64,000 bases of DNA from PVC group bacterium (GTDB lineage Bacteria > Auribacterota > Erginobacteria > Erginobacterales > Erginobacteraceae). Where the stretch lies: positions 9,027 through 73,026 of the forward strand of contig JAZDIV010000043.1 in assembly GCA_043804695.1 (NCBI GenBank). The letters run 5' to 3'. The notes under the pieces were generated by a model. That model searched no databases and was not told the DNA's origin. It worked only from the letters and a program-made list of their open reading frames with translations. Both the position numbers and the translations under genes were made by a program. This document shows, piece after piece, positions 1-19,555 of the stretch (its first letter is position 1; each line of letters starts with the position of its first letter).

Positions 1-719
1 ATTAAAAATGCCGCCAGGCTTCCCGCCAGGGGAGCGCAGGTAAAGACGATAAAAATATTCCCGGTCGTCGCCCCCAGCGCCACCAGGGTCAGGCAGGCGA
101 TCAGGGCGACGCCGGTGGCCAGGCCGTCCAGTCCGTCGATAATATTGAAAGCGTTGATCAGGCCGACAATCCAGAGAATGCTGATGATCACACCGAGGTT
201 GGGGTTGAGTTCAACCTGGCCGACCAGCGGTATATAGAAGGACTCAATCACGCAGCCGGTGGCGCAGATGAAAATGGCGATGGCGAACTGGCCCAGAAGC
301 TTGACCCGGGCCCGCATCCCCCTCAGGTCGTCGAGGAGGCCCAGCGCCAGGATGGCGATCCCCCCTGCCGCCAGGATGATAAAACTGCGGCTGAAGGAAG
401 CCCGGCCGAAGGCAAAACTCATCAGAGGATCAAGCCAGGACGGGTTCAGTCGGTAAATCAGTTCCCAGTTACGGACGATCAGCGAGCCGGCCAGGCCGGA
501 GCAGACATAAAAGACAAGCACCGGGACCGAGATCCCCAGGCCGCCCAGGAGAGGTACCTCGGACCACGAGACCCGGCGGTACCCGCCCCGGTCGATCGCC
601 CCGGTTTTCCGGGCCAGCAGCTTGATCAAAGGGGTCATGGCCGCGGTCAGCGAGCCGAACAATAAAAAGAGTACGACCAGGACCAGGGGATTTTCCAGAT
701 ATTGCGGTAACTCAATCAC
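1..719 (-). CDS. Polyprenyl-phosphate HexNAc-1-phosphate transferase (MraY/WecA/WbpL family initiating transferase); C-terminal part cut by window edge
   Basis: The minus-strand frame is open from the window edge to GTG at 719..717. This is my own translation; the ORF is absent from the track because it runs off the window. Sequence: VIELPQYLENPLVLVVLFLLFGSLTAAMTPLIKLLARKTGAIDRGG...SILWIVGLINAFNIIDGLDGLATGVALIACL. The NxxNxxDGxDGL motif plus repeated TM segments are diagnostic of the MraY/WecA family. The GTG overlaps the stop of the upstream gene by 8 nt. Confidence 0.8.
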   Translation of the reverse strand, partial: MIELPQYLENPLVLVVLFLLFGSLTAAMTPLIKLLARKTGAIDRGGYRRVSWSEVPLLGGLGISVPVLVFYVCSGLAGSLIVRNWELIYRLNPSWLDPLMSFAFGRASFSRSFIILAAGGIAILALGLLDDLRGMRARVKLLGQFAIAIFICATGCVIESFYIPLVGQVELNPNLGVIISILWIVGLINAFNIIDGLDGLATGVALIACLTLVALGATTGNIFIVFTCAPLAGSLAAFL

Positions 720-5092: not shown

Positions 5093-5294
5093 AACCACGA
5101 AGATCACGAAGGAGATGTATATAAAACCAACCTCATTACCTCGGCATAAGCCTATACATTCACCACCAATTTAAACATGGGGACTGGTGCTATAATACCG
5201 TGCATCAACCTCAACCTCGCAAAGGCATTAAACCGTGATTGATGTGCCTCATCACTTCTAATCTTCTTGGTTTTTCTTCGTGTTCTTCGTGTCC
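5093..5294. repeat. MITE-like unit bounded by inverted, 9-bp-phased CACGAAG tandem units
   Basis: The left end is aaccacgaagatcacgaagga (5093..5113). The right end at 5268..5294 reverse-complements to ggacacgaagaacacgaagaaaaaccaa. The same phased motif occurs at 12771..12817 and 21585..21614 and flanks the IS at 28782 and 30296. Confidence 0.6.
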
Positions 5295-5367
5295 TGCTGG
5301 TGAATAATAGATGTGGGCTTCCATGCCAAATAGGAAGAGAACCAAACAAAGGTAGACTGAAGACAGA

Positions 5368-6513
5368 ATGATCTCCGTGCTGATAGCGGGAGACCTCTGC
5401 CCCATCGGGAGGAACCTCCCTCTGTTCAAGGAAGGCGACGCCCAGGCGCTTTTCAACGATCTCCTCCCCGAATTCGAGCAGGCGGATCTCTCGATCGTCA
5501 ACCTGGAGTGCCCTTTGATCGGGGAGGAAAGACCGATCAAGAAGGTGGGTCCGGTCCTCGGCGCTCCCCGGGAGTCCGTCAACGGCCTCGAGGCGGCGGG
5601 GATAGACGTCGTCAACCTCGCCAACAATCACATCCTCGACCACGGAGCGGAGGGCCTTGCCAGCACGCTGGAAGCGTGCCGGCAGAGCGGAATCGACTGT
5701 GTCGGGGCGGGCGCTGATATCCGGGAGGCGCGGAAGATCCTGGTCCGGGAAGCGAAGGGGATCCAGGTCGGCATCCTGGCGCTGGCCGAGCATGAGTTCG
5801 GCACCGCCGGCACGAACAGCCCCGGCTCCAATCCGCTCGATCTCATCGACTTCGTCCGCAATGTCGACACCCACCGCCAGGAGTTCGATTGTCTGATCGT
5901 GCTCCTCCACGGCGGGAACGAGCACTACCCCTACCCCCGCCCCCGGTTGATGAATATCTGCCGCTTCTTTGTCGAGCGCGGCGCCGACGCCGTCATCTGC
6001 CAGCAGTCGCACGTTGCCGGGTGCGGAGAGACCTACCGGGGAGGGCACATCGTGTACGGGCAGGGGAACTTCATCTTCGACCTTCCTTCACCCCACCCGG
6101 CCTGGAACCGGGGGGTGTTGCTCGTCCTCGAGATCGACGGGCCGGGCAGATCACGGATGAGAATGGTTCCCTACCGGCAGTCCGACGGCGGTCCGGGCGC
6201 CCGCCGGTTGGGAGCGGAGGAGGAAAAACGTTTCCGGGAGGAATTCACCGCCCGGTCAGAGGAGATCCGGGACCCGGCCGAAGTTGAAAAACGGTGGCGG
6301 GAGTTCTGCCGCGGACAGGAGCGAGCTCTCCTCCATCTGCTCCATGGGAGGAATTCCCTTCTCCGGCGACTGGCGGTAAGAGCAGGCCTTTCCGGCCTGC
6401 TCGATTCAAAAAAGCGCTGTCTGACCCGCCTCCATCTGTTCCGCTGCGAGTCCCTTCGGGAAGCCCTGATCGCCGTCCTGGAGGAGAGATCGAAAATGAT
6501 TCCCGGGGAATAA
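5368..6513 (+). CDS. CapA family (PGA_cap, metallophosphatase-like) protein
   Basis: 381 aa. VVNLANNHILDHG, LIVLLHGGNEHYPYP and CQQSHVAG...GQGNFIF match the CapA/poly-gamma-glutamate capsule protein family pattern. Confidence 0.8.
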   Translation: MISVLIAGDLCPIGRNLPLFKEGDAQALFNDLLPEFEQADLSIVNLECPLIGEERPIKKVGPVLGAPRESVNGLEAAGIDVVNLANNHILDHGAEGLASTLEACRQSGIDCVGAGADIREARKILVREAKGIQVGILALAEHEFGTAGTNSPGSNPLDLIDFVRNVDTHRQEFDCLIVLLHGGNEHYPYPRPRLMNICRFFVERGADAVICQQSHVAGCGETYRGGHIVYGQGNFIFDLPSPHPAWNRGVLLVLEIDGPGRSRMRMVPYRQSDGGPGARRLGAEEEKRFREEFTARSEEIRDPAEVEKRWREFCRGQERALLHLLHGRNSLLRRLAVRAGLSGLLDSKKRCLTRLHLFRCESLREALIAVLEERSKMIPGE

Positions 6514-6520
6514 ACACATT

Positions 6521-6558
6521 AGTAGACAATTTATTTCGATCGAAATAAATTGTCTACT
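6521..6558. terminator. Perfect 38-nt palindrome between convergent genes (candidate bidirectional terminator)
   Basis: The sequence agtagacaatttatttcga|tcgaaataaattgtctact is exactly self-complementary. It lies between the CapA stop (6513) and the family-A gene stop (6564). Confidence 0.6.
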
Positions 6559-6563
6559 GTAAG

Positions 6564-8621
6564 CTACTCGAAGGGCAGCGGCTTCTCCGGCTCGAAGGTG
6601 AAGACGTGCCAAAGCTTCTTCCCCACCCCGTAATCCTGCCGGACAGAATCATTCACCAGTACCGGGGTAAGAGGGAGCGTGCTGTCCCAGATTACATAAC
6701 GGATGTCATTTTCGCGAATCAAGCGAGGTAGATATCCAGGATCATTTTCGGCCTGGAGATGGTCTATAAAAACGATCTTCCTTCTTCCCAGTGCCTTTCC
6801 CTGGGACAGGTGCCCGAAGATGAGATGGCGCTGGTTCTTCTCCCCGATCGCCACCCCGACCGAGTCATCCCCCGCCATGATCATTTCCATGATGGTCCCG
6901 TTCAGGTCGTCCCAGTAGTAGCCGGACGGATACGGCGAGCGGGCGGCCCGAAGCACCCGGAGGGGGCAGATACCGCCAACCTCCTTCCCCCGGAACGTGT
7001 CGAGGAAAGAGACGTGAAGGCGGAGACTGGCGATCGCTTCCCTCCCCGCCAGGAGGCAAACCGCAGCGAACCAGGCATACCCGGCAAACCGCTTCCAGCT
7101 GTTCTTCCCCGCCGATGCGGCCATCCGTCCCGTCACCACGGCCAGGCACGGTAATCCGAGGCCGGCCAGCCAGATGGTGTAGCGGGCCATGTGGTTATGA
7201 TGGCGGGGCATGGCGAAGAACATCACCAGGCAGAGAAAGAAAAGGTCGGGGAGGTAGGCGATCCCCCGGGTCTCCGGCCTTTTCCGGTGCACCACGCATA
7301 TATAGAGAAGCCAGAGGACAGCCGGGATGCTCAACAGCCAGGCAAATCCCAGACCTCCCCATCGGGAGTCGTAGACCAGGACCTCGGGATCGTTGAACCG
7401 GAAGCAGCCGAGCCAGTTGGAGAGCACCCGTTCCGCCTGGGACCAGCCTTCGGTCCCCTCCCGGTATGGGGGCCGGAATTGGGTCGCGGCATTGACGCCG
7501 GGGAAGAGTTGCCGACCCGCAAACGTTACCTCTACCGGATAGAACGGGTTCCCGGTGCGTATCCAGTTCCGCCCCGCCCAGCCGCCGCCCAACCCAAGGC
7601 CGATCAGAATCACGATAACGATAAAGAGCAGGCCGCGGCGAAGGCCGGGGGGGATACCGGACCGGTTCCCGGTTTCTTTCCGGGCCTGATGCCGCGCCAG
7701 AAAAAACCGGACGAGAAGAACCGCTCCCCCGGCCGGGACCAGAAATAGACCGGGGCCCTTGGAGCCGGCCGCCAGACCAAGGGCGAGGCCGAGGCCGGCC
7801 GCTAATCTCCAGGGGATTTTTCCCCTGTCGATCCGTTTCACCGTCCCCAGGAGCAGCGCGAAGAATGCCAGGTAACAGGCCGCGGAACCGGTATCGACCA
7901 TCGCGGTCAGGGACTGGGCGATATTGATGGGAAGATATAAAAACAAGCACCCGGCTGCCAGGGCGAAACCGGACCGGGCGCCCAGGGTCAGGGAGATACC
8001 GGTTATCGCCAGAGCGCCCAGGGGGAGGAAGAGCAGGTTGACACCGTTGAGGAGCCGGCTGCACCCGGTCGCCAGCAGGAAAACAAACTGCACTACCTCC
8101 ACTCCTTTGGGATAACCGTTCCAGGCGAAGGCGCCGACCGGCCCCCAGTGGGGGGAGCCGCCGGTCTCTATCCAGTGAACGCCGCCTTTTTGGAGCCAAA
8201 AGTGAAGTGTAGGGGTATGGTAGTAATTGCCGTCGTAAGAGAAGTCGGGAAGCGCGTAGGCGAGAACCCAGAGCAGAAGATAGAGGGCCAGCGTGACATA
8301 GAAAAACCCGGTCGCGAAAGGACCCGGCGGATCGGGTTTTACGTTATTCCGGCCGCGGCGGACGCTTCTCCGGTACAGCCACCCGGCCAGTGCCGCGAAA
8401 ATAATGAAGACAAAAGCTAACGGTCGAGAGACGGTGATCGAGAAAAGGCTCGCGGCCAGGAGAAGAGCCGTCAACAGGCCGTAGAAGAGGGAAAGACCGG
8501 CCAGCAGGTCAAGAGTCCCCCGCTCACTCCCCGCCAGCAGGCGGGGAGGAGAAAAATTGAATTCGGTGTATTCTATACCCCTCCGCTTCATCATATTTCT
8601 CTTCAGTCTCTTCCCTCCCAT
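6564..8621 (-). CDS. Polytopic membrane protein, putative GT-C-fold glycosyltransferase (family A, copy 1)
   Basis: 685 aa with more than 10 hydrophobic segments. It is a paralog of 16350..18362, sharing PDxxxDG...YHxPTLHFW, WNGYxKGVE, SRLLNGxNL and AMPxxHNHxARYxIWL. The layout (acidic first-loop motif, soluble C-terminal domain) is ArnT/PMT-like. Confidence 0.55.
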   Translation of the reverse strand: MGGKRLKRNMMKRRGIEYTEFNFSPPRLLAGSERGTLDLLAGLSLFYGLLTALLLAASLFSITVSRPLAFVFIIFAALAGWLYRRSVRRGRNNVKPDPPGPFATGFFYVTLALYLLLWVLAYALPDFSYDGNYYHTPTLHFWLQKGGVHWIETGGSPHWGPVGAFAWNGYPKGVEVVQFVFLLATGCSRLLNGVNLLFLPLGALAITGISLTLGARSGFALAAGCLFLYLPINIAQSLTAMVDTGSAACYLAFFALLLGTVKRIDRGKIPWRLAAGLGLALGLAAGSKGPGLFLVPAGGAVLLVRFFLARHQARKETGNRSGIPPGLRRGLLFIVIVILIGLGLGGGWAGRNWIRTGNPFYPVEVTFAGRQLFPGVNAATQFRPPYREGTEGWSQAERVLSNWLGCFRFNDPEVLVYDSRWGGLGFAWLLSIPAVLWLLYICVVHRKRPETRGIAYLPDLFFLCLVMFFAMPRHHNHMARYTIWLAGLGLPCLAVVTGRMAASAGKNSWKRFAGYAWFAAVCLLAGREAIASLRLHVSFLDTFRGKEVGGICPLRVLRAARSPYPSGYYWDDLNGTIMEMIMAGDDSVGVAIGEKNQRHLIFGHLSQGKALGRRKIVFIDHLQAENDPGYLPRLIRENDIRYVIWDSTLPLTPVLVNDSVRQDYGVGKKLWHVFTFEPEKPLPFE

Positions 8622-9178: not shown

Positions 9179-10117
9179 ATGAAAACGCCATCCAGGGGCC
9201 TGAACGGTGACGAACGCTGCCCGGTCTGCGATTCTAAAATGGTGCGGCTTCTCTACATGGGCATTGACAAGGTGGCATCGAGATACGGCTCGGACACCCG
9301 GTTTAGAGTTCGCTTGAACAAATGCAAATCGTGCGGAATGCTCTTTCTCGGGAAAGCCGATTATGACCCGGAACGGATCCATAAAGCGTACTGGAAAATG
9401 CTCACGGAAAATTTATCCGATGATTATTCAGTCCCCACGCAACACCGGAAGTTATTACCGAAGCTGGTAAACGACTACCGGAAAACAAATCGGCTTTTCG
9501 AGATCGGCTGCGGAGACGCTACTCTTTTACGCACATTCCAGGCATCCGGGTGGGAGGTGGAAGGGATCGATATTTCGGAGCAGGCAAGCGCTCTCGCCTG
9601 GGATAAATATGGACTGAAGGTACTGTGCGGACAGCTTGATGAAAAAACAGCCCGGCAACTGGGAGACCATTCATTCGATGTCGTGGTTATGTGGGGCCTG
9701 ATTGAACATCTCCCTGACCCGCGGAAGATGCTGCAGCTATCGCGGTTGCTATTGAGGAAGGGGGGCGCTCTTATTATCTACACCACGAATGCCAAAAGCA
9801 TATTCTATCGCCTGGCCCGTATCTCTTATTATTTGTCACTGAAACAATTTTCTTTTCTCATGGAGCGGGTTATTATCGCGATGCATTATCTGTATTTTTC
9901 GAGAGAAACGATGCGCTATTTCCTTCAGAGCGGTGATCTCAAAGTAAGAGAGATCATTATGACGGACATCGATCTGGATTTCATCTTTAAGGCACACGGT
10001 CATCTCTGGTGGTCTAACCGGTTCTTTCTGGTCCTGACCCATATTGTTCAACAAATCGGGACTCTGGGCAACATGAGCAGTCATATGATAGCCCTGGCGG
10101 AGGCAAGTTCAACCTGA
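9179..10117 (+). CDS. SAM-dependent methyltransferase with N-terminal Cx2C...Cx2C zinc ribbon
   Basis: 312 aa. Motifs are CPVCDS...CKSCG, then LFEIGCGDATLL and VVVMWGLIEHLPDP. Confidence 0.85.
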   Translation: MKTPSRGLNGDERCPVCDSKMVRLLYMGIDKVASRYGSDTRFRVRLNKCKSCGMLFLGKADYDPERIHKAYWKMLTENLSDDYSVPTQHRKLLPKLVNDYRKTNRLFEIGCGDATLLRTFQASGWEVEGIDISEQASALAWDKYGLKVLCGQLDEKTARQLGDHSFDVVVMWGLIEHLPDPRKMLQLSRLLLRKGGALIIYTTNAKSIFYRLARISYYLSLKQFSFLMERVIIAMHYLYFSRETMRYFLQSGDLKVREIIMTDIDLDFIFKAHGHLWWSNRFFLVLTHIVQQIGTLGNMSSHMIALAEASST

Positions 10118-10152
10118 TCGGCAACTGCCTATTCTACAATCATCGCTTCTTT

Positions 10153-11046
10153 ATGACGGCACCAAATGCAATCTGTCCGATCTGCAGTTCCCAGATCGTC
10201 TCTCCCTATTACCGGAGGAACCGGGAATTCCCGGTAAAAAGCTTCACTCCTTCGGTCAGTGACTTCGGGATTTTTTACAACCTCCACCGTTGTGACGGCT
10301 GTCACACGGTTTTCGCCTCTGAGATGCCATCCGCACAGGAACTGGCAAACGTTTACCAATCCTCCCACCCTGATGGATATCTTCTGGAAAAAAAGAACCG
10401 GCAGCGGAATTTCCAGCGCCTGATCAAGACGTTAGCCAAATACGTAGACCATAATAAGCAGGTAAAGTTGCTGGATGTGGGGGCTTCCATCGGGCTGTTT
10501 CTGGAGACGGTCCATGTCATATTCCCCCACTGGGAACTCCTCGGAGTCGAGGCAAGCTCAACGGCCACTGAAATGGCCGCGCGGCGGTACGGGATCAAAC
10601 TCATCCAGGGGATGTTCGAAACCATCGACCTCTTGCCGGATAATCAGGACATCATCACCATGCTGGATCTGATCGAACACGTCCGCTCGCCGCTCGAAGT
10701 AATCTGCCAGGCAAACCGGCTCCTAAAATCCGGGGGGATTCTAGTGATCAGCACCCCCAACATCGAAAGTTGGACGTCACGTCTCTTCCGGAGCCACTGG
10801 TGGGGCTTCCGGTGCATGCACACGCTTTATTTTTCGCCCTTGAGCATGAAACAGATGCTTGCCAAAGGGGGATTCCGGGTAATTACGATGCGAGGCCTGA
10901 TCCGTTTATTCACTCTCCGGTACTGTCTCCGCCACCTGGGATGGCCCATCCAGGGGCCGTCCATCAGCATCCCTTTTCCTCTTTCCCTGGGAGACATGCT
11001 GGTGATCGCCCGCAAGGAGAGCTCGGTCTTCCCTCAAACAGTCTGA
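10153..11046 (+). CDS. SAM-dependent methyltransferase with N-terminal Cx2C...Cx2C zinc ribbon (paralog of 9179..10117)
   Basis: 297 aa. Motifs are CPICSS...CDGCH, then LLDVGASIGLFLE and ITMLDLIEHVRSP. Its stop lies 4 nt before the next start. Confidence 0.85.
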   Translation: MTAPNAICPICSSQIVSPYYRRNREFPVKSFTPSVSDFGIFYNLHRCDGCHTVFASEMPSAQELANVYQSSHPDGYLLEKKNRQRNFQRLIKTLAKYVDHNKQVKLLDVGASIGLFLETVHVIFPHWELLGVEASSTATEMAARRYGIKLIQGMFETIDLLPDNQDIITMLDLIEHVRSPLEVICQANRLLKSGGILVISTPNIESWTSRLFRSHWWGFRCMHTLYFSPLSMKQMLAKGGFRVITMRGLIRLFTLRYCLRHLGWPIQGPSISIPFPLSLGDMLVIARKESSVFPQTV

Positions 11047-11049
11047 TCC

Positions 11050-12549
11050 ATGAATACGATCCGTTTTCAACGATTCACCGCCAGGATAGATAATTATTTC
11101 TACCAGGTAGTGTTTGCTATCTCCTTCCTCTATGTCCTGACCCTAATCTCAAATTATGATATCAACTGGACCCATCCGGAAGTGGCAAAAATCCAGATCC
11201 CCGGGGTGGTAAAAAATGGGACAGCAATTGTCCCGGGGGATTTATTGAGGGGGTTTGACGTTTTAAGTTTCGAATACGGTGGACGGTCCCGCTTCGTTTC
11301 CTATTTCTTCCAGACGTTCAACATCAAGATCCGTCTCCTGCTGCTCCGGTTCATCCCCCCACACCCCAGTTTTTCACTCACCTGGATATTAACCCTGATT
11401 CTCTGCCCGATCCTCTTCTTCAAACTCATCCATGACCTGAGCGGCGACCGCACTACCGCGTGGGCCGGCGCATCCCTGTTCCTGCTTTCCACGGGAACGT
11501 TATCCGGAATAACCATGTTTTTTCACCCGGCGAAACCACTGGCCCTTTTTTTCACTCTTTTATGCTGCTACCTGGGTTCCAGACTCAGCCAGTATGCGCA
11601 ACGCGAGGAGTATTTCTCGAAAAGATATATCCTGCTTCTGATCATCCTGCTCGGCACTATGTTCGCAGCCTGTTTTACAGACGAGGCGGCCTGGTACATC
11701 TTCATCTGCGTACCGATCCTGGCTCCCGGGATGTTCCGGAACAAGCGGTGGGGACTGTTGACAATCGGGCTCTGCTTTTCGATGTTTATCATATTTTTTC
11801 TCTTCGTTACCTACCTGGTACCGATCATTACGAAACAGCTTTTCGGACAGAATTCTTTCAACTTCTGGCGGATGGCTTTGATCAAGGGAGACAGGTCGGT
11901 GTGGGATAATTACAGGTTAACAAACACATTTATCAACGCCTGGTATATTATTATAAGCCAGCTGGTGCCGCCCGGGAAATTTTTCAGCCACAACATACCC
12001 ATCAGAACTCTCTATTTATTCGTGCTCTCGACATACCTGGTTTGCGCCTTCATTGGATTATCCTCCGATAGAAAGAAAACAGTGCTGCGAGGGTTGGTCG
12101 CCCTGGTGCTCTTTTTCATCTTTCAATCGCTGATCCTGGCGAAAAGGGGGAAAGGGCTCATTGATAGTTCTTTTTACTACGGGAACTTGACCTCCATCTT
12201 CTTAATCCTGCCGCTGGCAATACTGCTTTCGGCGGGAAAAGAGCCTTTAAAAACTCTCAATAAAATTGTCCTCATAACCCTCCTCTTAATCTATTCTTAT
12301 AACTTCACGGGTATCAATTATCGCTGGATGCGGAATCATGAAGGACAACGGGGCTATGGTTATCGAAAATACTTTCCCGAAGAAGCGAAAAAGATGGGAA
12401 GGAATAAATTAACTTATCCCCTGGTAAAAATGGCCTGGGAGAAACGCCATGACCGGGAAGCTCTGGAGGAGATGAAGCCCCTCTTCCCTCTGAAAGCCCA
12501 CTGGCTCTTCCTCGAACTGAACTGTGTCTATAATCCCGGAGATGATTAA
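11050..12549 (+). CDS. Polytopic membrane protein of unknown function, possibly GT-C-like (family B, copy 1)
   Basis: 499 aa. It is a paralog of the N-terminal 480 aa of 56965..59022, sharing WxHPE, DLLRGFD, R[ST]RF[VL]SY, SL[ST]W[IV] and MFFHPxKPL. It is visibly AT-richer than the neighbouring family A and C genes. Confidence 0.5.
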   Translation: MNTIRFQRFTARIDNYFYQVVFAISFLYVLTLISNYDINWTHPEVAKIQIPGVVKNGTAIVPGDLLRGFDVLSFEYGGRSRFVSYFFQTFNIKIRLLLLRFIPPHPSFSLTWILTLILCPILFFKLIHDLSGDRTTAWAGASLFLLSTGTLSGITMFFHPAKPLALFFTLLCCYLGSRLSQYAQREEYFSKRYILLLIILLGTMFAACFTDEAAWYIFICVPILAPGMFRNKRWGLLTIGLCFSMFIIFFLFVTYLVPIITKQLFGQNSFNFWRMALIKGDRSVWDNYRLTNTFINAWYIIISQLVPPGKFFSHNIPIRTLYLFVLSTYLVCAFIGLSSDRKKTVLRGLVALVLFFIFQSLILAKRGKGLIDSSFYYGNLTSIFLILPLAILLSAGKEPLKTLNKIVLITLLLIYSYNFTGINYRWMRNHEGQRGYGYRKYFPEEAKKMGRNKLTYPLVKMAWEKRHDREALEEMKPLFPLKAHWLFLELNCVYNPGDD

Positions 12550-12871: not shown

Positions 12872-14464
12872 CTAATTATCCGAACTAAGACTTCCCGCGC
12901 GGTCCCAGTATCGAGATGGGATATTCCTTTGCGGAAGAACGGACGGATCCATCTGATTTTTAAGCCGGTAATTAAGCGTCTCCCCGTCCGCCACCCAGGC
13001 GGCATCCCCGATAAAGGGCGTGAAGCTGAATATCTCTTCCCGGGAGAAAATCCACTGGTAGGTTCCCCGGAAGAACCGGCCCATATCTTCGTTCCAGCAG
13101 AGAGACGGAAGATAGGACGGGATCCCGTCCGGCATCGCCAGCGGTTGCTGCGGGGAAATCTCTCCCCGCTTGATCCCCCCCTGGATCCGCCCCAGGAGCG
13201 TCTTCAGGGGGGTCATCTCAGTATCAATCAGGTTCACTGCCCCCCGGACCGCGATGACATTGAAGACAACGGCCAGGATCAGCAATAAACTGATCCCCCT
13301 TCTCACCGGACCGGACCGGACCAGTCGATCGACGGCCAACGCGCCCATCAGGACCAGGAAGGCGTTGGCGATATACTGGTAACGGAACTGGAGGAAGAGA
13401 TCAGTGAAGTTTTCGGTGGTGGAACGGCCGAGCGCGAGGACGAAGAAACCGGCCGCGTACAGGAAGAAAAGCAATCCCAGGCCGGCGGGGATCTTCCGGC
13501 GCGGTCTCCGGAAGGAAGCAATCAGGACGAATAGGACAAGCGAGACCGACCCGGTCGCGGTGACGACCGTCCGCAGGAGGCCCGGGCTCCAGGCGGCGGC
13601 CGGGCCGCCCATCTCGATGTTATGGGTCACCCGCAGAGGCAAGGCCAAGAAAGGAAGCAGGTTGATCAAAATCCCGTTATAGAGGAGGTTGAAGAAGACC
13701 GAGCAGAGGCTGAGGAAGACGTCCCCGGCGCCGGGAGCGGAGAGGGAGCCTGATGTGTGGGGAGCGGTCCGGGTGACGAGAAAGACCAGCAGATACATCC
13801 AGTAAACCGCTGCGGTCATCAGCACCGCCGGGCGGCGGCGACCGGCAATCCGTCTCATTGAAATCAGGAGGAGACCGAGCGGCCAGAGAAGAAAGAGTTC
13901 CAGACAGAGGAGAGAGAAGAGAAACAGGAAGCCGATGGGAACGAGGAGCAGCTTGTTTCCGCCGTCACTGTACCGGAGATAAATGATGATCCCGAAAAGA
14001 AAGGCAGAGAAACTGAGCGGCATCGTGACATGAAAGGTCCAGGTGACAATATCGGCATGAGTGAAGAGAACGGCGAAGAGGGAGAGAAAGAGAGCCAGGG
14101 TACCCGTTCCGATGCCAAGCCGCTTTCCCAGCAGATAAAGAAGAACAATGCTCAGGAAATAACCGGCGAAGTTCACCAGGTGATAGGGGAGAAAATCCGC
14201 TCCGAAAAGGCGGTGTTCCAGGTAGAGGACCGGGTGGGCGACGGGGCGGAAGGTGCCGTCCCGCCAGGGATCGTGGTTAACGACAAATGAGAAACCAGGG
14301 GGACCGGGAGAGGCGTCAACCAGGTGGAAGGCAAAGAGCGCCGACCACCAGTCGCTCCGGGGAGGGTTCGTAAAGGAGGGGGCGAAGATGATGATGAGAA
14401 CGGCCAGAAGAAGCGCGAAGTACCCCGCGATCTTCTCTCGGGCCATATATTCATCAGCTCTCAT
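12872..14464 (-). CDS. Polytopic membrane protein, putative GT-C-fold glycosyltransferase (family C, copy 1)
   Basis: 530 aa. Motifs are FTNPPRSDWW, NHDPWRDGTFRPV...LYLEHRLFG (PMT/TMTC-like yRPL..l...FG pattern) and C-terminal LCWNEDM...GTYQWIFS. It is a paralog of 14836..16353 and 45147..46895. Confidence 0.55.
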   Translation of the reverse strand: MRADEYMAREKIAGYFALLLAVLIIIFAPSFTNPPRSDWWSALFAFHLVDASPGPPGFSFVVNHDPWRDGTFRPVAHPVLYLEHRLFGADFLPYHLVNFAGYFLSIVLLYLLGKRLGIGTGTLALFLSLFAVLFTHADIVTWTFHVTMPLSFSAFLFGIIIYLRYSDGGNKLLLVPIGFLFLFSLLCLELFLLWPLGLLLISMRRIAGRRRPAVLMTAAVYWMYLLVFLVTRTAPHTSGSLSAPGAGDVFLSLCSVFFNLLYNGILINLLPFLALPLRVTHNIEMGGPAAAWSPGLLRTVVTATGSVSLVLFVLIASFRRPRRKIPAGLGLLFFLYAAGFFVLALGRSTTENFTDLFLQFRYQYIANAFLVLMGALAVDRLVRSGPVRRGISLLLILAVVFNVIAVRGAVNLIDTEMTPLKTLLGRIQGGIKRGEISPQQPLAMPDGIPSYLPSLCWNEDMGRFFRGTYQWIFSREEIFSFTPFIGDAAWVADGETLNYRLKNQMDPSVLPQRNIPSRYWDRAGSLSSDN

Positions 14465-14835: not shown

Positions 14836-16353
14836 TCATCGTTTTACATACACACCCTCATTCAGGTCCATTGTCCAGTAAGCATCTCCCTGGCGCCGGC
14901 TGAAACAGGCCAGTTCCGCCGGCGAGAAGAGCCACTGGTAGGTGCCCCAGATCCTACTCCCCATCCCCCGGTTCCAGCAAAGACGGGGGAACGAGGTGGC
15001 AAATCCGTCAGGGAGATAGAGACGACGTTCGGGGGTGATCTCGCCGCGGTCCATCCCGGTCCGGATGTTCTGTAAAAGCTCCTTCAGCGGGGCGAGACAT
15101 TTGGTGACATTCTCGACGTGGCGGTGGGTATAGTAGCCGTTGACGAAAAAAACGGCCAGCAGGATGGCGAACAGGACCGCCCTCCCCTTCCGGGCGGGCC
15201 GGAGGAGAGCGGAGACGACAATCGCCGCCAGGAGTACGAGGAGGGCGTTGGGGATGAGCTGGTAGCGGAACTGGCGGAGGATGTGGCTGAAGTCACTGGT
15301 GATCGAACGGGCGGCCACCAGCAGTGAGAAGTTGCTGAGATAGAGAAAACCGAGAAAGGCGGCGGCCGCCAGGGCCCTCCATTCTTTCCTCCGGACGAGG
15401 AGGAAGACCAGCAGTCCGGCCAGGAGCAGGACAACGGCAGCGGCAGCGTACGCCAGCGGAACCAGCCAGGGCGGCTTTCCGAGGGGGATCACTCCCAACA
15501 TTTCACTGTATCCCCGGTAGCGGCCGGGATAAGCGAGAGCGGGAATGGCATTGACCCCGATACCCGTATAGAGAAGGTTGAAGAGGGAGAAGACCGCCCC
15601 GGTCAGGAAGGATATCATTGAGGGTGATGACAGCTCGCCGGGGAGGTGAGAGGCGGACCGCGTGAGCAGGAAAACCGTTCCGTAAAGAAGATACAGGACT
15701 CCGAGCAGGAAAACGGTGGAACGGATGGGCCGCCGGGGCCGGCCAGCCGGCCGGCGGGTAAAGAGCAGGATCAGGACCGCCAGGGGCCAGCAGCAGAACG
15801 TCTCGTAGCAGAGCAGGGAAAGAAAAAAAAGCAGGCCAGCGGGGAAGAGAAGGAGCGTCTTCCCTCCCTCCAGGTAACGGATGTAGAGCAGGAAGGCCCC
15901 GATGAAACCGGCGAAGCCGGCCACGAGGAAAATGTGAAAGGTCAACGACAGGACGTCGCAGTGGGAGTAGAGCACGGCCCAGACGGCCAGGAATCCCCCC
16001 AGTTCCAGCCCCCGGGCGCCCAGCCGCCGTCCCAGGCGGAAGAGGAGGATCAGGAGGAGACAGTAACAGGCAAAATCGGCGAGATGATTGAAGATGAACC
16101 GGCCCCCGAAGGCCAGGTGCTCGAGATAGAGGAGGGTGTAGGAGAGAGGCCGGAACGTGCCGTGCTGCCAGGGGTCGTGGTTGACGACGTAGGGCCAGAC
16201 CGGGAGGTCCGGGTCGGCCCGGACCTGGTGAAAGGTGAAGAACGCCTCCCAGTAGTCCACGTGAGGCGGGTTGGAGAACGTGGGCAGGATGAGGATCCCG
16301 AGGAAGAGAAAAAGGAGAGCGAAGCCGGTTACTGACGCGAGGCGCTTTCTCAT
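14836..16353 (-). CDS. Polytopic membrane protein, putative GT-C-fold glycosyltransferase (family C, copy 2)
   Basis: The track ORF starts at GTG 16362. ATG 16353 (MRKRLASV...) makes a classical ATGA overlap with the stop of 16350..18362. Motifs are FSNPPHVDYW, NHDPWQHGTFRPL and LCWNRGM...GTYQWLFS. Confidence 0.55.
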   Translation of the reverse strand: MRKRLASVTGFALLFLFLGILILPTFSNPPHVDYWEAFFTFHQVRADPDLPVWPYVVNHDPWQHGTFRPLSYTLLYLEHLAFGGRFIFNHLADFACYCLLLILLFRLGRRLGARGLELGGFLAVWAVLYSHCDVLSLTFHIFLVAGFAGFIGAFLLYIRYLEGGKTLLLFPAGLLFFLSLLCYETFCCWPLAVLILLFTRRPAGRPRRPIRSTVFLLGVLYLLYGTVFLLTRSASHLPGELSSPSMISFLTGAVFSLFNLLYTGIGVNAIPALAYPGRYRGYSEMLGVIPLGKPPWLVPLAYAAAAVVLLLAGLLVFLLVRRKEWRALAAAAFLGFLYLSNFSLLVAARSITSDFSHILRQFRYQLIPNALLVLLAAIVVSALLRPARKGRAVLFAILLAVFFVNGYYTHRHVENVTKCLAPLKELLQNIRTGMDRGEITPERRLYLPDGFATSFPRLCWNRGMGSRIWGTYQWLFSPAELACFSRRQGDAYWTMDLNEGVYVKR

Positions 16354-18362
16354 GGCGACCACCCTCCTCCCCCCCTGTCCGGAGGAGCGGCATCAGGAGA
16401 GACTGCCAGCAGATAATACCAGTAAGGCATCCGGTCCCAAAGATGGGCGAGTCGCCCCAGCGCCGGGGGAACCGGGATATCCGGGTTCCAGACCACGTAC
16501 CTGATCCCGCGCTCGCGGATAAACCGGGAGAGTTTCCCGGGATCGGCCGCCGTCGCCCGGCTCAGAAAATAGATCGGCCGGACGCCGAAGGCGGCCCCCT
16601 GGGTGAGGTGGCCCACAATCTGCTTCTGCTCCGGGAAGCTGTCCAGTTCCCCCAGGGCGACCGGCTCCCGGTTGTCAAAAACCACCCGGAAGAGGCTTCC
16701 CTTCAGCTCCGGGAGATAGTACCCCGGGGGATAGGGCTCACGGGCCGCCCGGAGGAGATGAGACGCGTGAAAAGAACCCTCCCTGGCCCCCTGGCGGGCG
16801 AGGGATATCCTCTTCACGTTGTATGAGAAACTGTACAGCCCCTCGGCCAGGAAGACGATGAGCACAGCCAGAACCCATAATCGTCCCAGCCGCCGACGCG
16901 CGGTCGAGGGTGCCCGCCAGACCTTTTCCGCGGCCAGGGCAAAAGCGGGGAGGCCGATCCCGTAAAGCCAGATGACATACCGCGCCTTGTGATTGTGCCG
17001 GGGGGGCATGGCGAAAAAAATAATCACCCCCATGACCAGGATGCCGACCCAGGCGGCGCCGGTCCCCGGTGAGAGTCCGGCCGGCCGACGGCGGATGATT
17101 ACCGCCAGGAGCCAGACCAGGGCAGGGACGCAGCCGAAGAGCCAGAGGAGGCCGAGTCCGCCCGAGTTATGCGAGACCTCCGTCATCGCCAGGTGCCACT
17201 CTCCCGGGCAATCCAACCAGCTGTAGAACAACCGGAAAAGCTGGGGCCAGTGCTTGGTGAGGGGGGTGTCGGGCGGAGGGAACTGGGAGGGGATCGCCAC
17301 CCCCGGGAAGACCTCTTTGTCCGCCAGCCGCAGGCCGATCGGGTAGAGGGGGCTGCCGGTGTGGATATAGTTCCGCAGGTACCAGTACCCTCCCACCAGG
17401 AGCGCGATCAACACCATCAGGACGATAAAGACCACTCCCCGTCGGGCACCCGCCCGGAAGGATCGCACTGCCCGGTACCAGTACACCACGAGAAGAACCG
17501 GCAGCAGCGGAAGAAGAACGACCGCGGTCCCCTTGGCGCTGAGGGAAAGACCGATAGCGCAGCCCAGGGCCGGCAAGAATTTCAGCGGATCGTGCCCGGT
17601 TTCGAGGGAGCGGATGGTGAAGGCCGCGGCCGCGAAGAGGGCGATGTAGAAAGAGGCCACCGAGGCGTCGATGTAGAGGTTGAACGCGTGCCCGATGACG
17701 GTGGGGATGAAGAGAAAGAGGATGCCGCCCAGGATGGCGGAGAGCCGGCCGGCGCCGAGAAAGCGGGTCAGGGCACTGATCCCCAGGCACCCGAGGGGAA
17801 CAATCGTGAGATTGAGGCCGTTGAGAAGGCGGCTGACCGGGACCGCCCGGAGGAAGAGAAAACCGATGCACTCAACCCCTTTCATGTACCCGTTCCATGA
17901 GTACCTGATGAGATCGTTCCAGAACGGCTCCGAGTCGGCGGTGATCCAGTGGATCCGGCCTTTCAGCGCCCAGAAATGGAGTGTGGGATTATGATACCAG
18001 AGCCCGTCGTTCTCGGCGTCCGGGAGGATATAGGCGACCGCCCAGAGAAGAAGATAAAAAAAAAGCCCCGCCCCCAGCAACCAGCCCTCCCCGGTGGTTA
18101 ACCTGACTCCGGATTGGCGACCGCCCGGCGGCTGCAGCCGCCGGCGGTAAAAAATACCGGCCACGGCCGAGGCGGCGATAATGGTCCAGGCGATTGGTAC
18201 GGACACGGGTATCCCCACCTGGCTGAAAGCGAGGGTGAGAATCGCGGCGCTCCCATAGGCAAGCAGGGCCCCCGAGAGGATGGAGAATACCTCTCCCCCG
18301 GCTTCCGGCGTGAGCCGAAAGCCGGGAGCGGGCCAAGCGTGTACTTGCCGATCGGTTGCCAT
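16350..18362 (-). CDS. Polytopic membrane protein, putative GT-C-fold glycosyltransferase (family A, copy 2)
   Basis: 670 aa with ATG checked. It shares PDAENDGLWYHNPTLHFW, WNGYMKGVE, SRLLNGLNL and AMPPRHNHKARYVIWL with 6564..8621. Confidence 0.55.
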   Translation of the reverse strand: MATDRQVHAWPAPGFRLTPEAGGEVFSILSGALLAYGSAAILTLAFSQVGIPVSVPIAWTIIAASAVAGIFYRRRLQPPGGRQSGVRLTTGEGWLLGAGLFFYLLLWAVAYILPDAENDGLWYHNPTLHFWALKGRIHWITADSEPFWNDLIRYSWNGYMKGVECIGFLFLRAVPVSRLLNGLNLTIVPLGCLGISALTRFLGAGRLSAILGGILFLFIPTVIGHAFNLYIDASVASFYIALFAAAAFTIRSLETGHDPLKFLPALGCAIGLSLSAKGTAVVLLPLLPVLLVVYWYRAVRSFRAGARRGVVFIVLMVLIALLVGGYWYLRNYIHTGSPLYPIGLRLADKEVFPGVAIPSQFPPPDTPLTKHWPQLFRLFYSWLDCPGEWHLAMTEVSHNSGGLGLLWLFGCVPALVWLLAVIIRRRPAGLSPGTGAAWVGILVMGVIIFFAMPPRHNHKARYVIWLYGIGLPAFALAAEKVWRAPSTARRRLGRLWVLAVLIVFLAEGLYSFSYNVKRISLARQGAREGSFHASHLLRAAREPYPPGYYLPELKGSLFRVVFDNREPVALGELDSFPEQKQIVGHLTQGAAFGVRPIYFLSRATAADPGKLSRFIRERGIRYVVWNPDIPVPPALGRLAHLWDRMPYWYYLLAVSPDAAPPDRGGGGWSP

Positions 18363-18367
18363 CGGAC

Positions 18368-19555
18368 CTATGGCCGCGACGGGGCGGACGCCAACACCCC
18401 GACTTCGAACAGGGGCCCGGCCTTTTTCCCCTCCCGGTCATAAAAGAGAGCGGAAAAGGTATAGGGGACCGGCGCCACGAATAAATCCCGGGTAACCATA
18501 ACGAACTCCCCCGCTGCCCAGTTCGAGGTCTCGGGATAAATGGGGAAAAACCACTCCTCGCTCCTTTTCCCGGCTTTTCTCCTGGCCTCGGACAGGTGGC
18601 CGATATCCTCCGGGGAAACCTTCCCGTAGAGGTTCATCCAATAATCGCGCTCAAGCGGCCGGTCGGTTCGGAAAAGAAGCCGGAGACGGCCGGTCTTCGG
18701 TCCGGTCCGCTCCAGTTTCGCTCCGAAGTATTCGATCCCGTCTTCGACGACGGCTTCCGGCAAAAGCGCGCCGACAACCTCCCGGTACCGGTACTGGACT
18801 AAGTCCGCCGTGGAGCCGGAACGGGCGTGGCAAAACGAGAGCCATTCAGCCAGCCGGAAGGGATCGTCTTCAGCCCGGATCTCATCCGCCCTGACCGGTA
18901 TCTCTTCGATCTTCCGCAGTGTCCCCAGCAGGATCTGGTTTCCGTGTCGGCCCTGGGAACTGTCCATATTTATCCGTAGCTCGTAGGGGAGATCGGGGGC
19001 GGTGATATCCTCCCGGACGACGATAAATCCCCCCTCTTTCCAGAATGTCGTCGGCGGAAGGGGGTTGAAGTGCCACCACCGGTATCCTTTCTCCCGGTAC
19101 GGTTCGGAGAGCAGGGATGGATCGGCAAGACGCCCTTCGATGGTAATACCGTAATCATCTTCCAGTTTTTCCATAACGCGGAAAAGGAGATAGATGCGGT
19201 ACCGCTCCTTTCCTATCTTCTCGAAGTCAAACGCCCACAGATCCAGCTCGTTGGATAACTTGCCGATCCTGCTCCCCTTTCCCTCGATCTTCCCGGCCAG
19301 AAGTTCCCACTTCCGGTTGAGCGCCTCTTCCACCACCGCTGATTTTTTCAGGGCGACGGCATAGTTGGCCCGGGTTTCGTTGAGTGTAATCAAATCATCG
19401 GCCGCCTCGATCTCCCGCAGATACGCCTGTTCATCGTAAATCATGGGAGGGAAGGAATATTCATCCCGCTCCGGCGAACACCCCCCGGCCGATAGAAGAA
19501 GCATGATCGTGCCGGATATATAAGCAAATTTCCTGAAAATTTTTACCTCTGTCAC
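18368..19555 (-). CDS. Lipoprotein of unknown function with an internal two-module duplication (family L, copy 1)
   Basis: 395 aa. GTG start is preceded by AAGGAGAAG. The signal peptide ends in a LSAGGC lipobox-like site. There are two ~120-aa modules (FDFEKIG..RYRIYLLFRV...NPLPPTTFWKEGG...PYELRINM and a second with PIYPETSNWAAGE...PYTFSALFY). It is a paralog of 34040..35275. Confidence 0.7.
   Translation of the reverse strand: MTEVKIFRKFAYISGTIMLLLSAGGCSPERDEYSFPPMIYDEQAYLREIEAADDLITLNETRANYAVALKKSAVVEEALNRKWELLAGKIEGKGSRIGKLSNELDLWAFDFEKIGKERYRIYLLFRVMEKLEDDYGITIEGRLADPSLLSEPYREKGYRWWHFNPLPPTTFWKEGGFIVVREDITAPDLPYELRINMDSSQGRHGNQILLGTLRKIEEIPVRADEIRAEDDPFRLAEWLSFCHARSGSTADLVQYRYREVVGALLPEAVVEDGIEYFGAKLERTGPKTGRLRLLFRTDRPLERDYWMNLYGKVSPEDIGHLSEARRKAGKRSEEWFFPIYPETSNWAAGEFVMVTRDLFVAPVPYTFSALFYDREGKKAGPLFEVGVLASAPSRP

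What the first reader, a model, noticed from the sequence alone, without database searches (positions are those of the whole stretch)
18368..19555. Uncharacterised lipoprotein family with an internal two-module duplication, present twice and embedded among the GT-C/Wzy genes
18368..19555 (395 aa, LSAGGC site) and 34040..35275 (411 aa, ITGC lipobox) are paralogs. Each contains two ~120-aa modules with the recurring pattern [AE]DLxAFD[FY]xxIGxxxYRxxYLFxV...[HR]PxPPTxxWxxGE...PYxxxxxxY...LGW. In copy 2 the two modules are strikingly similar to each other (ADLLAFDYRKIGPDRYRADYLFKVNQP versus ADLVAFDYRQIGENQYRVDYLFHVNRP). Copy 1 is translationally close-coupled (5-nt gap) to a family A GT-C gene. 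Copy 2 sits between the Wzy-TPR-Fn3 gene and the ATP-grasp gene. I cannot assign the module to any named domain. A periplasmic, outer- or inner-membrane-tethered tandem-module protein could be a glycan-binding, ruler or scaffold partner of the membrane enzymes.
Basis: partly seen in the sequence, partly recalled or inferred. Interest (0 to 1): 0.65.

Follow-up and report, generated by a model that had tools for sequence, protein, structure and literature searches.

The report
Unnamed periplasmic partner domain of glycan enzymes
Two paralogous lipoproteins in this polysaccharide gene island are built from an unnamed, roughly 178-residue helix-plus-beta-sandwich module that in other bacteria is fused to the end of the same kind of membrane sugar-polymer enzymes encoded next to them, so they are most likely detachable helper subunits of those enzymes.

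Summary
ORFs 18368..19555(-) and 34040..35275(-) are paralogs (31% identity, E 4e-49). Each has a signal peptide with a lipobox cysteine and two homologous modules. The module is about 178 aa, not about 120: a small helical subdomain plus an 8-strand beta-sandwich (AlphaFold pLDDT 97). No Pfam, NCBIfam or PDB sequence match exists, and fold matches are only generic Ig-like sandwiches (TM 0.3-0.46).

The family is much larger than these two genes: 285 representative clusters. Of 149 examined, 64 are one- or two-module lipoproteins. Another 37 are polytopic membrane proteins with the module at the extreme C-terminus, including PMT_2 GT-C glycosyltransferases and Wzy_C proteins.

The Wzy_C-TPR gene immediately upstream of copy 2 aligns full-length (37-40% identity) with two proteins that carry the module fused at their C-terminus, in the same syntenic slot. 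Copy 1 always precedes four polytopic membrane proteins with borderline GT-C signatures.

Best reading: a non-catalytic periplasmic accessory or binding domain of undecaprenyl-dependent glycan enzymes, supplied in trans as a lipoprotein here. Which ligand it binds is not shown. It is a new domain family filling a known kind of role, of moderate interest.

The parts
18368..19555 (-). Copy 1 (clade A), a two-module lipoprotein of 395 aa
   Evidence: ORF; translation; 18 orthologs at 48-69% identity, all unnamed; NCBI name 'hypothetical protein V1789_04150 [PVC group bacterium]'
19478..19555 (-). Copy 1 signal peptide and lipobox (residues 1-26, ...LLLSAGG|C)
   Evidence: n-region K5/R8/K9, a hydrophobic stretch, and Cys26 followed by the conserved SPERDEYSFPPMIYDE; passes the PROSITE-type rule
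18911..19438 (-). Copy 1 module 1 (residues 40-215)
   Evidence: module HMM E 1.4e-51
18386..18907 (-). Copy 1 module 2 (residues 217-390)
   Evidence: module HMM E 2.6e-48
34040..35275 (-). Copy 2 (clade B), a two-module lipoprotein of 411 aa
   Evidence: ORF; translation; 19 homologs; AF2 model pLDDT 87.2, pTM 0.77
35183..35275 (-). Copy 2 signal peptide and lipobox (residues 1-31, ...FLCITG|C)
   Evidence: classical lipobox ITGC; C31 and S32 nearly invariant in alignment A1
34592..35128 (-). Copy 2 module 1 (residues 50-228)
   Evidence: module HMM E 6.4e-78
34070..34591 (-). Copy 2 module 2 (residues 229-402)
   Evidence: module HMM E 1.6e-81; AF2 single-module model pLDDT 97.0, pTM 0.90
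35374..37542 (-). Wzy_C-TPR-(Fn3-like) polytopic membrane protein of 722 aa; inferred partner of copy 2
   Evidence: Pfam Wzy_C and TPR; Fn3-like C-terminal ~90 aa; always immediately upstream of clade B genes; full-length homologs P0062 and P0074 carry the module fused at the C-terminus
37667..39409 (-). Wzz-like / coiled-coil protein of 580 aa, first gene of the conserved triplet
   Evidence: weak Pfam Wzz hit; conserved order Wzz-like, then Wzy_C-TPR, then lipoprotein in L001-L006, L008 and L018
16350..18362 (-). 670-aa polytopic membrane protein starting 5 nt after copy 1; inferred partner of copy 1
   Evidence: always follows clade A genes; no Pfam hit; paralog of 6564..8621, which has a weak PMT hit
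14836..16362 (-). 508-aa polytopic membrane protein, GT-C-like
   Evidence: its ortholog in L010 passes the PMT_2 gathering score (27.6 vs 26.1 bits); conserved in the clade A operon
12872..14464 (-). 530-aa paralog of the 508-aa protein
   Evidence: hhalign probability 100% between A5 and A6; conserved operon position
6564..8621 (-). 685-aa paralog of the 670-aa protein. It is the fourth gene of the clade A operon elsewhere; here three plus-strand genes separate it from the operon.
   Evidence: tblastn synteny; weak PMT hit, E 6e-4, below the gathering score

Best explanation
The two genes encode lipid-anchored, extracytoplasmic, non-catalytic proteins. Each is made of two copies of a previously unnamed module of about 178 aa (a small helical subdomain packed on an Ig-like beta-sandwich). 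The module is an accessory domain of polytopic, undecaprenyl-phosphate-dependent glycan enzymes. Many bacteria have it covalently fused to the C-terminus of GT-C (PMT_2/ArnT-like) glycosyltransferases or Wzy_C (polymerase/ligase-like) proteins. This PVC-group lineage supplies it in trans as a lipoprotein encoded next to the enzyme. Copy 2 would work with the Wzy_C-TPR-Fn3 protein encoded immediately upstream. Copy 1 would work with the 670-aa membrane protein 5 nt downstream and the GT-C-like membrane proteins that follow it. Shown here: the homology, the fold class, the absence of a conserved catalytic-type residue set, the fusions, and the conserved gene order. Inferred: the lipoprotein physically docks on its enzyme at the periplasmic face. 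Also inferred: the sandwich, through its conserved aromatic and proline loop (W..P.PPT..W..GE, IPY, LGW), holds the growing or accepted glycan (or another acceptor) near the active site. This would parallel the way beta-sandwich CBMs serve the mycobacterial GT-C enzyme AftD.
For: (1) Fusion evidence (Rosetta stone). The window's Wzy_C-TPR protein aligns over its whole length with P0062 (40% identity, E 1e-154) and P0074 (37%, E 1e-131). Both end in one module. In L018 the fused gene sits between the Wzz-like gene and the flippase, the same slot as in the window. (2) Of 149 representative proteins, 37 are polytopic, with 5-13 crude TM segments, and carry the module within 45 residues of the C-terminus in all but one. 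Of 45 large members, 19 hit PMT_2 and 3 hit Wzy_C. Their N-terminal parts fall into at least 10 unrelated BLAST clusters, so the fusion arose repeatedly. Sources name some of them 'ArnT family glycosyltransferase' or 'O-antigen ligase family protein'. (3) Gene order is invariant. Wzz-like, then Wzy_C-TPR, then the clade B gene occurs in 6 independent loci, including one at 32% identity. The clade A gene followed by the 670-, 508-, 530- and 685-aa families occurs in 3 independent loci. (4) P0040 is a clade B ortholog fused to a 10-TM domain, again just upstream of the flippase. (5) Distant single-module lipoproteins (22-26% identity) head Wzx/sulfotransferase/Wzy loci. (6) A Hanks-type kinase, P0172, carries two modules outside the membrane, which fits a binding domain. 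(7) The models are confident (pLDDT 97 and 87) and show an Ig-like sandwich. The conserved positions are W, P, G and Y, with no conserved acidic/His set. (8) The AftD precedent: beta-sandwich CBMs on a GT-C bind its glycan acceptor (bioRxiv 10.1101/2019.12.22.885152).
Against: No binding, complex formation or localisation has been shown. Fold matches are generic (TM 0.3-0.46), so a carbohydrate-binding function is not supported by any specific structural relative. The residue after the lipobox Cys is Ser, which in E. coli would send a lipoprotein to the outer membrane, away from an inner-membrane enzyme; the sorting rules of this lineage are unknown. The 670-aa neighbour of copy 1 has no recognisable family of its own, and none of the listed hits is a fusion with that family. 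The gene downstream of copy 2 varies between ATP-grasp, flippase and another family member, so operon membership alone is not specific.
Confidence: 0.6

Rival explanations
1. The lipoprotein is the dedicated acceptor substrate (a glycoprotein) of the adjacent Wzy_C-type enzyme acting as an O-oligosaccharyltransferase, or of PMT_2-type protein glycosyltransferases. The conserved P-x-P-P-T-S loop would be the glycosylation site.
For: Wzy_C domains include protein O-oligosaccharyltransferases, and dedicated transferase/acceptor gene pairs are known (established knowledge, e.g. TfpO/pilin and PglL-ComP/ComP). A second, shorter Wzy_C gene (31442..32806) could be the true polymerase. The most conserved loop is Pro-rich with a Thr conserved in 79% of modules. 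PMT_2 relatives include protein O-mannosyltransferases.
Against: A substrate permanently fused to at least 10 unrelated enzyme families, and to a Ser/Thr kinase, is hard to rationalise. The PPT loop is predicted to be well ordered (pLDDT about 98) rather than a flexible low-complexity sequon. W357 (99%) and G398 (96%) are more conserved than the Thr.
Confidence: 0.1
2. It is an outer-membrane-anchored component that captures, retains or exports the finished polysaccharide at the cell surface, functionally replacing or assisting an OPX/Wza- or Wzi-like protein. It would not be an enzyme subunit.
For: The lipobox is followed by Ser, not Asp. No Poly_export/OPX gene was found among the window ORFs scanned. 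Single-module relatives sit first in Wzx/Wzy loci. The tandem Ig-like architecture resembles matrix or scaffold proteins such as V. cholerae RbmA, although that fold hit is weak.
Against: The fused forms tether the module to inner-membrane enzymes within about 150-250 residues of the last TM segment, which is incompatible with an obligatory outer-membrane location. There is no similarity to Wza, Wzi or GfcB families.
Confidence: 0.1
3. The sandwich is a lipid-binding cup, like the ML domain of NPC2 or the GM2 activator. It would hold the polyprenyl tail of the lipid-linked donor or product and hand it to or from the enzyme.
For: The top single-module fold hits are yeast NPC2 (E 1.6e-4, TM 0.38-0.46) and the GM2 activator. 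All partner enzyme classes use undecaprenyl-linked substrates (established knowledge).
Against: TM scores are below 0.5 with RMSD above 4 Å and identity of about 10%. GH2 Ig-like domains, FN3 and the Wzt CBD score equally well. No cavity analysis was possible.
Confidence: 0.07
4. The tandem modules act as a molecular ruler or spacer that sets polymer chain length or the distance between the enzyme and the outer layers.
For: The number of modules per protein varies from one to three. The genes sit next to a Wzz-like gene.
Against: Most family members have a single module (50 of 64 lipoprotein-like representatives and 32 of 37 fusions). No correlation with any polymer property is available.
Confidence: 0.05

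Closest known systems
Periplasmic beta-sandwich carbohydrate-binding modules of mycobacterial GT-C arabinosyltransferases (AftD; also the EmbC C-terminal CBM, the latter from my own knowledge)
   Same: A non-catalytic beta-sandwich domain attached on the extracytoplasmic side of a polytopic GT-C enzyme. In AftD these domains are shown to help bind the complex glycan acceptor. Here the module is at the C-terminus of PMT_2 GT-C proteins.
   Different: There is no sequence or specific fold similarity. This module has an extra N-terminal helical subdomain. It also attaches to Wzy_C proteins and a kinase, and it exists as a free lipoprotein encoded next to the enzyme.
Generic Ig-like / E-set / FN3 beta-sandwich domains (e.g. 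GH2 Ig-like domains, Ihog FN3, NPC2 ML domain, A. aeolicus Wzt O-antigen-binding CBD)
   Same: The overall beta-sandwich topology; Foldseek E 1e-4 to 3e-3.
   Different: TM is only 0.30-0.46. Pfam fn3, ML and CBM models give no hit. The W..P.PPT..W..GE / IPY / LGW signature and the helical subdomain are specific to this family.
Split versus fused accessory subunits of envelope glycan machines (general Rosetta-stone logic; for example Wzy polymerases work with separate Wzz co-polymerases)
   Same: A separately encoded periplasmic partner in the same operon as a Wzy_C enzyme, inferred to act in a complex.
   Different: It is not a PCP/Wzz: it has no flanking TM pair, no coiled-coil and no Wzz Pfam hit. 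A separate Wzz-like gene is already present.

Membership tests
Bacterial lipoprotein (Lgt/LspA substrate) | N-terminal positively charged n-region, hydrophobic h-region, and a lipobox ending in an invariant Cys at about position 15-35 | tested here: met
   Copy 1 has K5/R8/K9, a hydrophobic stretch, and SAGG|C26, and passes the PROSITE-type regex. Copy 2 has R3/R4, a hydrophobic stretch, and ITG|C31 (classical lipobox). The Cys is nearly invariant in orthologs. Pattern rules only were used, not SignalP or LipoP.
Bacterial lipoprotein (Lgt/LspA substrate) | Actual lipidation and membrane localisation | not testable with these tools
   Requires experiment (globomycin sensitivity, palmitate labelling, fractionation).
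Fibronectin type III / Ig-like (E-set) domain | Match to the family sequence profile | tested here: not met
   No fn3 or Ig Pfam hit at E <= 0.1 in 48 modules; one module gave Ig_GP210_15th at E 0.082.
Fibronectin type III / Ig-like (E-set) domain | Seven- to eight-strand two-sheet beta-sandwich fold | tested here: inconclusive
   The model has 8 strands. The best FN3 hit is 2ic2_B with TM 0.41/0.57. Other sandwiches score similarly.
Carbohydrate-binding module (CAZy CBM families) | Sequence or specific structural similarity to a CBM family and demonstrated glycan binding | tested here: not met
   No Pfam CBM hit. The only CBD-like fold hit (Wzt CBD 8dku_A, TM 0.39) is no better than generic hits. 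Binding itself is not testable here.
ML (MD-2-related lipid-recognition) domain | Sequence profile match and a beta-cup with a lipid cavity | tested here: inconclusive
   NPC2 is the top fold hit, but TM is 0.38-0.46 and identity about 10%. There is no Pfam E1_DerP2_DerF2 hit. The cavity was not analysed.
OPX / Wza outer-membrane polysaccharide export lipoprotein | Poly_export (PF02563) and SLBB domains | tested here: not met
   No Pfam or NCBIfam hit.
Polysaccharide co-polymerase (Wzz/PCP) | Wzz domain, two flanking TM helices, periplasmic coiled-coil | tested here: not met
   No Wzz hit, a single N-terminal hydrophobic segment, and a mostly beta structure.
GT-C glycosyltransferase (applies to the 670-aa neighbour of copy 1, not to the lipoprotein) | Match to a GT-C family profile (PMT, PMT_2, etc.) | tested here: inconclusive
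   The 670-aa protein has no Pfam hit at E <= 1 and no PDB sequence hit. Its paralog 6564..8621 hits PMT at E 6e-4, below the gathering score. The 508-aa neighbour's ortholog passes the PMT_2 gathering score.

The most novel reading that the evidence does not exclude
The module is a universal, transferable docking and substrate-presenting subunit. It defines a previously unrecognised class of two-component (enzyme plus lipoprotein) Wzy_C and GT-C glycan machines. Its conserved W/P/T loop either recognises a common feature of undecaprenyl-linked intermediates or is itself glycosylated. On this reading, many orphan PMT_2 and Wzy_C enzymes in uncultivated phyla need this partner to be active.
Probability: 0.2. 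Interest if true: 0.75.

Novelty: new variant of a known kind. Interest (0 to 1): 0.55.

Why it matters
GT-C glycosyltransferases and Wzy_C polymerases/ligases are hard to reconstitute, and how they hold their acceptor is poorly understood. This domain family is unnamed and sizeable: 285 clusters at 50% identity, with 215 at E <= 1e-10. It is found either fused to such enzymes or encoded beside them as a lipoprotein, which gives a concrete, testable candidate for a missing subunit. That matters when such enzymes from uncultivated bacteria are expressed for glycoengineering. It also gives annotators a new domain model and a predicted interaction pair: copy 2 with the Wzy_C-TPR protein. The biology is not revolutionary, because accessory beta-sandwich domains on GT-C enzymes are already known.

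Tried and rejected
1. Known-family assignment. Pfam, NCBIfam and PDB sequence searches with the full proteins, with 48 diverse modules and with the module profile gave nothing above noise. The TIGR04200 hit (E 7.6e-4) covers only the signal peptide and was dismissed.

2. Fold search with the two-module model gave tandem Ig/FN3 proteins (transglutaminase barrels, RbmA) at TM 0.15-0.19. I judged this to be an artefact of the two-domain geometry. The single-module search gave only generic sandwiches.

3. Classifying the 670-, 508- and 530-aa membrane proteins led nowhere by several routes. PDB profile searches found nothing. HMM searches against the fusion N-termini found nothing. Local hhalign with shallow alignments gave probabilities below 10%. 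Only relaxed Pfam scans gave borderline PMT and PMT_2 hits.

4. The third homologous-protein search, with the module profile, returned only 7 proteins because of the word index. It was useful only for making P0145 and P0153 available for context look-ups.

5. Literature searches found no description of this domain. They yielded only the AftD analogy.

6. A neighbour-joining tree of modules suggests that the clade B duplication predates the divergence of the clade B orthologs. It also suggests that the clade A modules are much more diverged. I did not draw further conclusions from a midpoint-rooted distance tree.
Full report
**Observation**

The ORF list shows 18368..19555(-), 395 aa with a GTG start, and 34040..35275(-), 411 aa with an ATG start. 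BLASTP between them gives 31% identity over 363 aa (E 4e-49), plus an off-diagonal alignment (E 1e-20) that reveals the internal repeat.

I built a 179-position module HMM from the aligned family. It hits copy 1 at residues 40-215 and 217-390 (E 1e-51 and 3e-48) and copy 2 at 50-228 and 229-402 (E 6e-78 and 2e-81). It hits nothing else in the six-frame translation of the window. The two modules of copy 2 are 41% identical (z = 24.8 against shuffles). Those of copy 1 are 25% identical (z = 10.6).

The stated gene spacing is correct: 5 nt to the 670-aa gene, and copy 2 lies between the Wzy_C-TPR gene and the ATP-grasp gene.

**Anatomy**

Each protein starts with a short basic stretch and a hydrophobic segment. 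A Cys follows (SAGG|C26 in copy 1, ITG|C31 in copy 2), then Ser. The Cys and Ser are nearly invariant in the ortholog alignment. Simple lipobox rules are met, but no dedicated predictor was available.

AlphaFold2 with a 17-sequence alignment gives a confident two-module model (pLDDT 87.2, pTM 0.77). A single module with 48 diverse homologs gives pLDDT 97.0 and pTM 0.90. Each module is three to four short helices followed by an eight-strand beta-sandwich with a short helical insert.

Across 192 full modules the conserved positions are W346 (93%), W357 (99%), G398 (96%), Y376 (88%), G392 (88%), G360 (85%) and P375 (83%), in copy 2 numbering, plus the P-x-P-P-T loop. These are aromatic, Pro and Gly residues. 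There is no conserved acidic/His constellation, so the module looks non-catalytic. That is an inference.

**No named family**

Pfam-A, NCBIfam and PDB sequence searches give nothing for the proteins, for 48 diverse modules, or for the module profile. Foldseek against the PDB with the single module returns only generic Ig-like sandwiches, with TM 0.30-0.46 and E >= 1.6e-4. These include the yeast NPC2 ML domain, GH2 Ig-like domains, Ihog FN3 and the A. aeolicus Wzt CBD. The full-length model hits tandem Ig/FN3 proteins at TM < 0.2. The fold class is therefore an Ig-like sandwich, with no specific relative.

**Family size and architectures**

Word-indexed searches find two narrow orthologous clades. 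There are 19 relatives of copy 2 and 17 of copy 1, all unnamed. The two clades co-occur on the same contigs of PVC-group MAGs.

An exhaustive profile search finds far more: 285 representative clusters (50% identity) at E <= 1e-3, and 215 at E <= 1e-10. I examined 149 representatives.

| Architecture | Count |
|---|---|
| Short proteins with an N-terminal lipobox-like motif | 64 (50 one-module, 14 two-module) |
| Polytopic membrane proteins (5-13 crude TM segments) with the module at the extreme C-terminus | 37 |
| Fragments or other | 48 |

Among 45 large members, 19 match PMT_2 (the GT-C family that includes ArnT) and 3 match Wzy_C. Sources name some of them 'ArnT family glycosyltransferase', '4-amino-4-deoxy-L-arabinose transferase-like glycosyltransferase' or 'O-antigen ligase family protein'.

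The N-terminal membrane parts fall into at least 10 BLAST-unrelated clusters, so the module has been attached to membrane enzymes many times. One member, P0172, is a Hanks-type Ser/Thr kinase followed by a TM segment, TPR repeats and two modules.

**Link to the neighbouring genes**

The gene immediately upstream of copy 2 (35374..37542) has Wzy_C, TPR repeats and an Fn3-like C-terminal ~90 aa. It aligns over its full length with P0062 (residues 35-708, 40% identity, E 1e-154) and with P0074 (37%, E 1e-131). Both of these continue into one module at their C-terminus.

In locus L018 the fused gene lies between a Wzz-like gene and a flippase. In the window's relatives that slot is occupied by the separate Wzy_C-TPR and lipoprotein genes. 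The order Wzz-like, then Wzy_C-TPR, then the clade B lipoprotein is invariant in six independent loci: L001, L002/L006 (one contig), L003, L004, L005 and L008. It holds even at 32% identity, while the downstream gene varies.

P0040 is a clade B ortholog by module phylogeny, yet it is fused to a 10-TM domain. It again lies just upstream of the flippase.

Clade A genes are always followed by the 670-, 508-, 530- and 685-aa membrane-protein families. These form two pairs of paralogs: 670/685 at 35-39% identity, and 508/530 at hhalign probability 100%. The 508-aa family passes the PMT_2 gathering score in one ortholog. The 685-aa protein hits PMT below threshold. The 670-aa protein itself hits nothing. 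Calling copy 1's partner a GT-C is therefore plausible but not demonstrated.

Remote single-module lipoproteins (22-26% identity) also head Wzx/sulfotransferase/Wzy loci.

**Mechanism**

What is shown: the homology, the fold class, repeated C-terminal fusion to Und-P-dependent polytopic glycan enzymes, and conserved adjacency to such enzymes.

What is inferred: the lipoproteins are trans-acting equivalents of the fused domain. They dock on the periplasmic face of their enzyme and bind the glycan or other acceptor through the conserved aromatic/proline surface. The analogy is with the beta-sandwich CBMs that help the GT-C enzyme AftD bind its arabinan acceptor (bioRxiv 10.1101/2019.12.22.885152).

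I put about 0.6 on 'accessory partner of the adjacent enzyme', and less, about 0.4, on glycan binding specifically.

Four rivals remain:

- The lipoprotein is the glycosylation substrate of a Wzy_C-type O-oligosaccharyltransferase, via the Pro-rich Thr loop (0.1).
- It is an outer-membrane retention or export factor, given Ser at +2 and no OPX gene found in the window (0.1).
- It is an ML-like polyprenyl-binding cup, since NPC2 is the top fold hit (0.07).
- It is a ruler (0.05).

The fusions to many unrelated inner-membrane enzymes and to a kinase argue against the first two.

**Context of the window**

The whole 64 kb is a glycan island. It holds:

- a Wzx flippase and a PGA_cap gene;
- several GT4 and GT2 genes and two Wzy_C genes;
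- a YfhO-like protein;
- an XrtA-type polysaccharide deacetylase, just below its cutoff;
- a formyltransferase and a DegT aminotransferase;
- methyltransferases and B12-radical SAM enzymes;
- a sulfatase, an arylsulfotransferase and a heparinase II/III-like protein.

**Novelty and verdict**

The domain family is undescribed in the libraries and literature I could search. The role it most likely plays, an accessory beta-sandwich on a membrane glycan enzyme, is a known kind.

Three things are new. The family itself is new, and so is its alternation between lipoprotein and fused forms across GT-C, Wzy_C and kinase scaffolds. It also yields a specific predicted enzyme-lipoprotein pair. I rate it a new variant of a known kind, with interest 0.55.

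Noticed in passing
window 39406..40398 (-): A 330-aa gene with Y1_Tnp (IS200-like) and Bac_DnaA_C domains overlaps the start of the Wzz-like gene by 4 nt. It lies between that gene and the divergent GT2 gene. In related loci (L005, L006, L008) the GT2 gene is directly adjacent to the Wzz-like gene, so this looks like an insertion into the island.
   Followed up: partly
window 16350..18362, 6564..8621, 14836..16362, 12872..14464 (all -): Four polytopic membrane proteins without Pfam assignment form two paralog pairs (670/685 aa and 508/530 aa). The 508/530 pair shares a strongly conserved N-terminal motif, NHDPWRxGTFRP. Only borderline PMT or PMT_2 hits support a GT-C identity. In other genomes the four genes are contiguous; here three plus-strand genes (two methyltransferases and a 499-aa ORF, 9179..12549) separate the fourth from the rest.
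   Followed up: partly
L008 6455..8179; L017 836..2068 and 5241..8051: Some related genomes carry extra family members in the same locus. L008 has a 574-aa protein with about three modules directly after the clade B gene. The L017 contig has a free clade B-like lipoprotein, a 10-TM fusion (P0040) and a clade A gene (P0027) together.
   Followed up: partly
P0172 (831 aa, not in window): A Hanks-type Ser/Thr kinase (HRDIKPQN at 137, DFG at 157) is followed by one TM segment, TPR repeats and two copies of the module. This suggests the module can serve as an extracytoplasmic sensor domain.
   Followed up: partly
P0162 (2884 aa, not in window): A giant protein gave nine short matches to profile positions 266-308 in the exhaustive search, but the module HMM did not hit it. 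It may be a spurious repeat match or a very diverged strand-pair repeat.
   Followed up: no
window 28836..29900 (-) and 28839..30011 (+): Two long ORFs (354 aa and 390 aa) overlap almost completely on opposite strands. The minus-strand one, co-oriented with the operon, has no Pfam or NCBIfam hit. Which strand codes was not resolved.
   Followed up: no
window 42708..44123 (+), 59039..60457 (-), 61850..62920 (+), 63180..63968 (-), 46904..48310 (-), 48696..49943 (+), 712..2406 (-): The island holds two B12-binding radical SAM genes, two further radical SAM genes (one with a SPASM domain), a sulfatase, an arylsulfotransferase and a heparinase II/III-like gene. This hints at a methylated and/or sulfated polysaccharide with its own remodelling enzymes.
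   Followed up: no
window 35377..35650 (-), C-terminus of the Wzy_C-TPR protein: The last ~90 residues have an Fn3-like sequence pattern (P.P.....V...L.W....SYD..LW...........L..GTTY.WRVRA.GRYGE...D.W.FRT) conserved in four orthologs. They are not related to the module by HMM. In the fused relatives the module follows this domain.
   Followed up: partly
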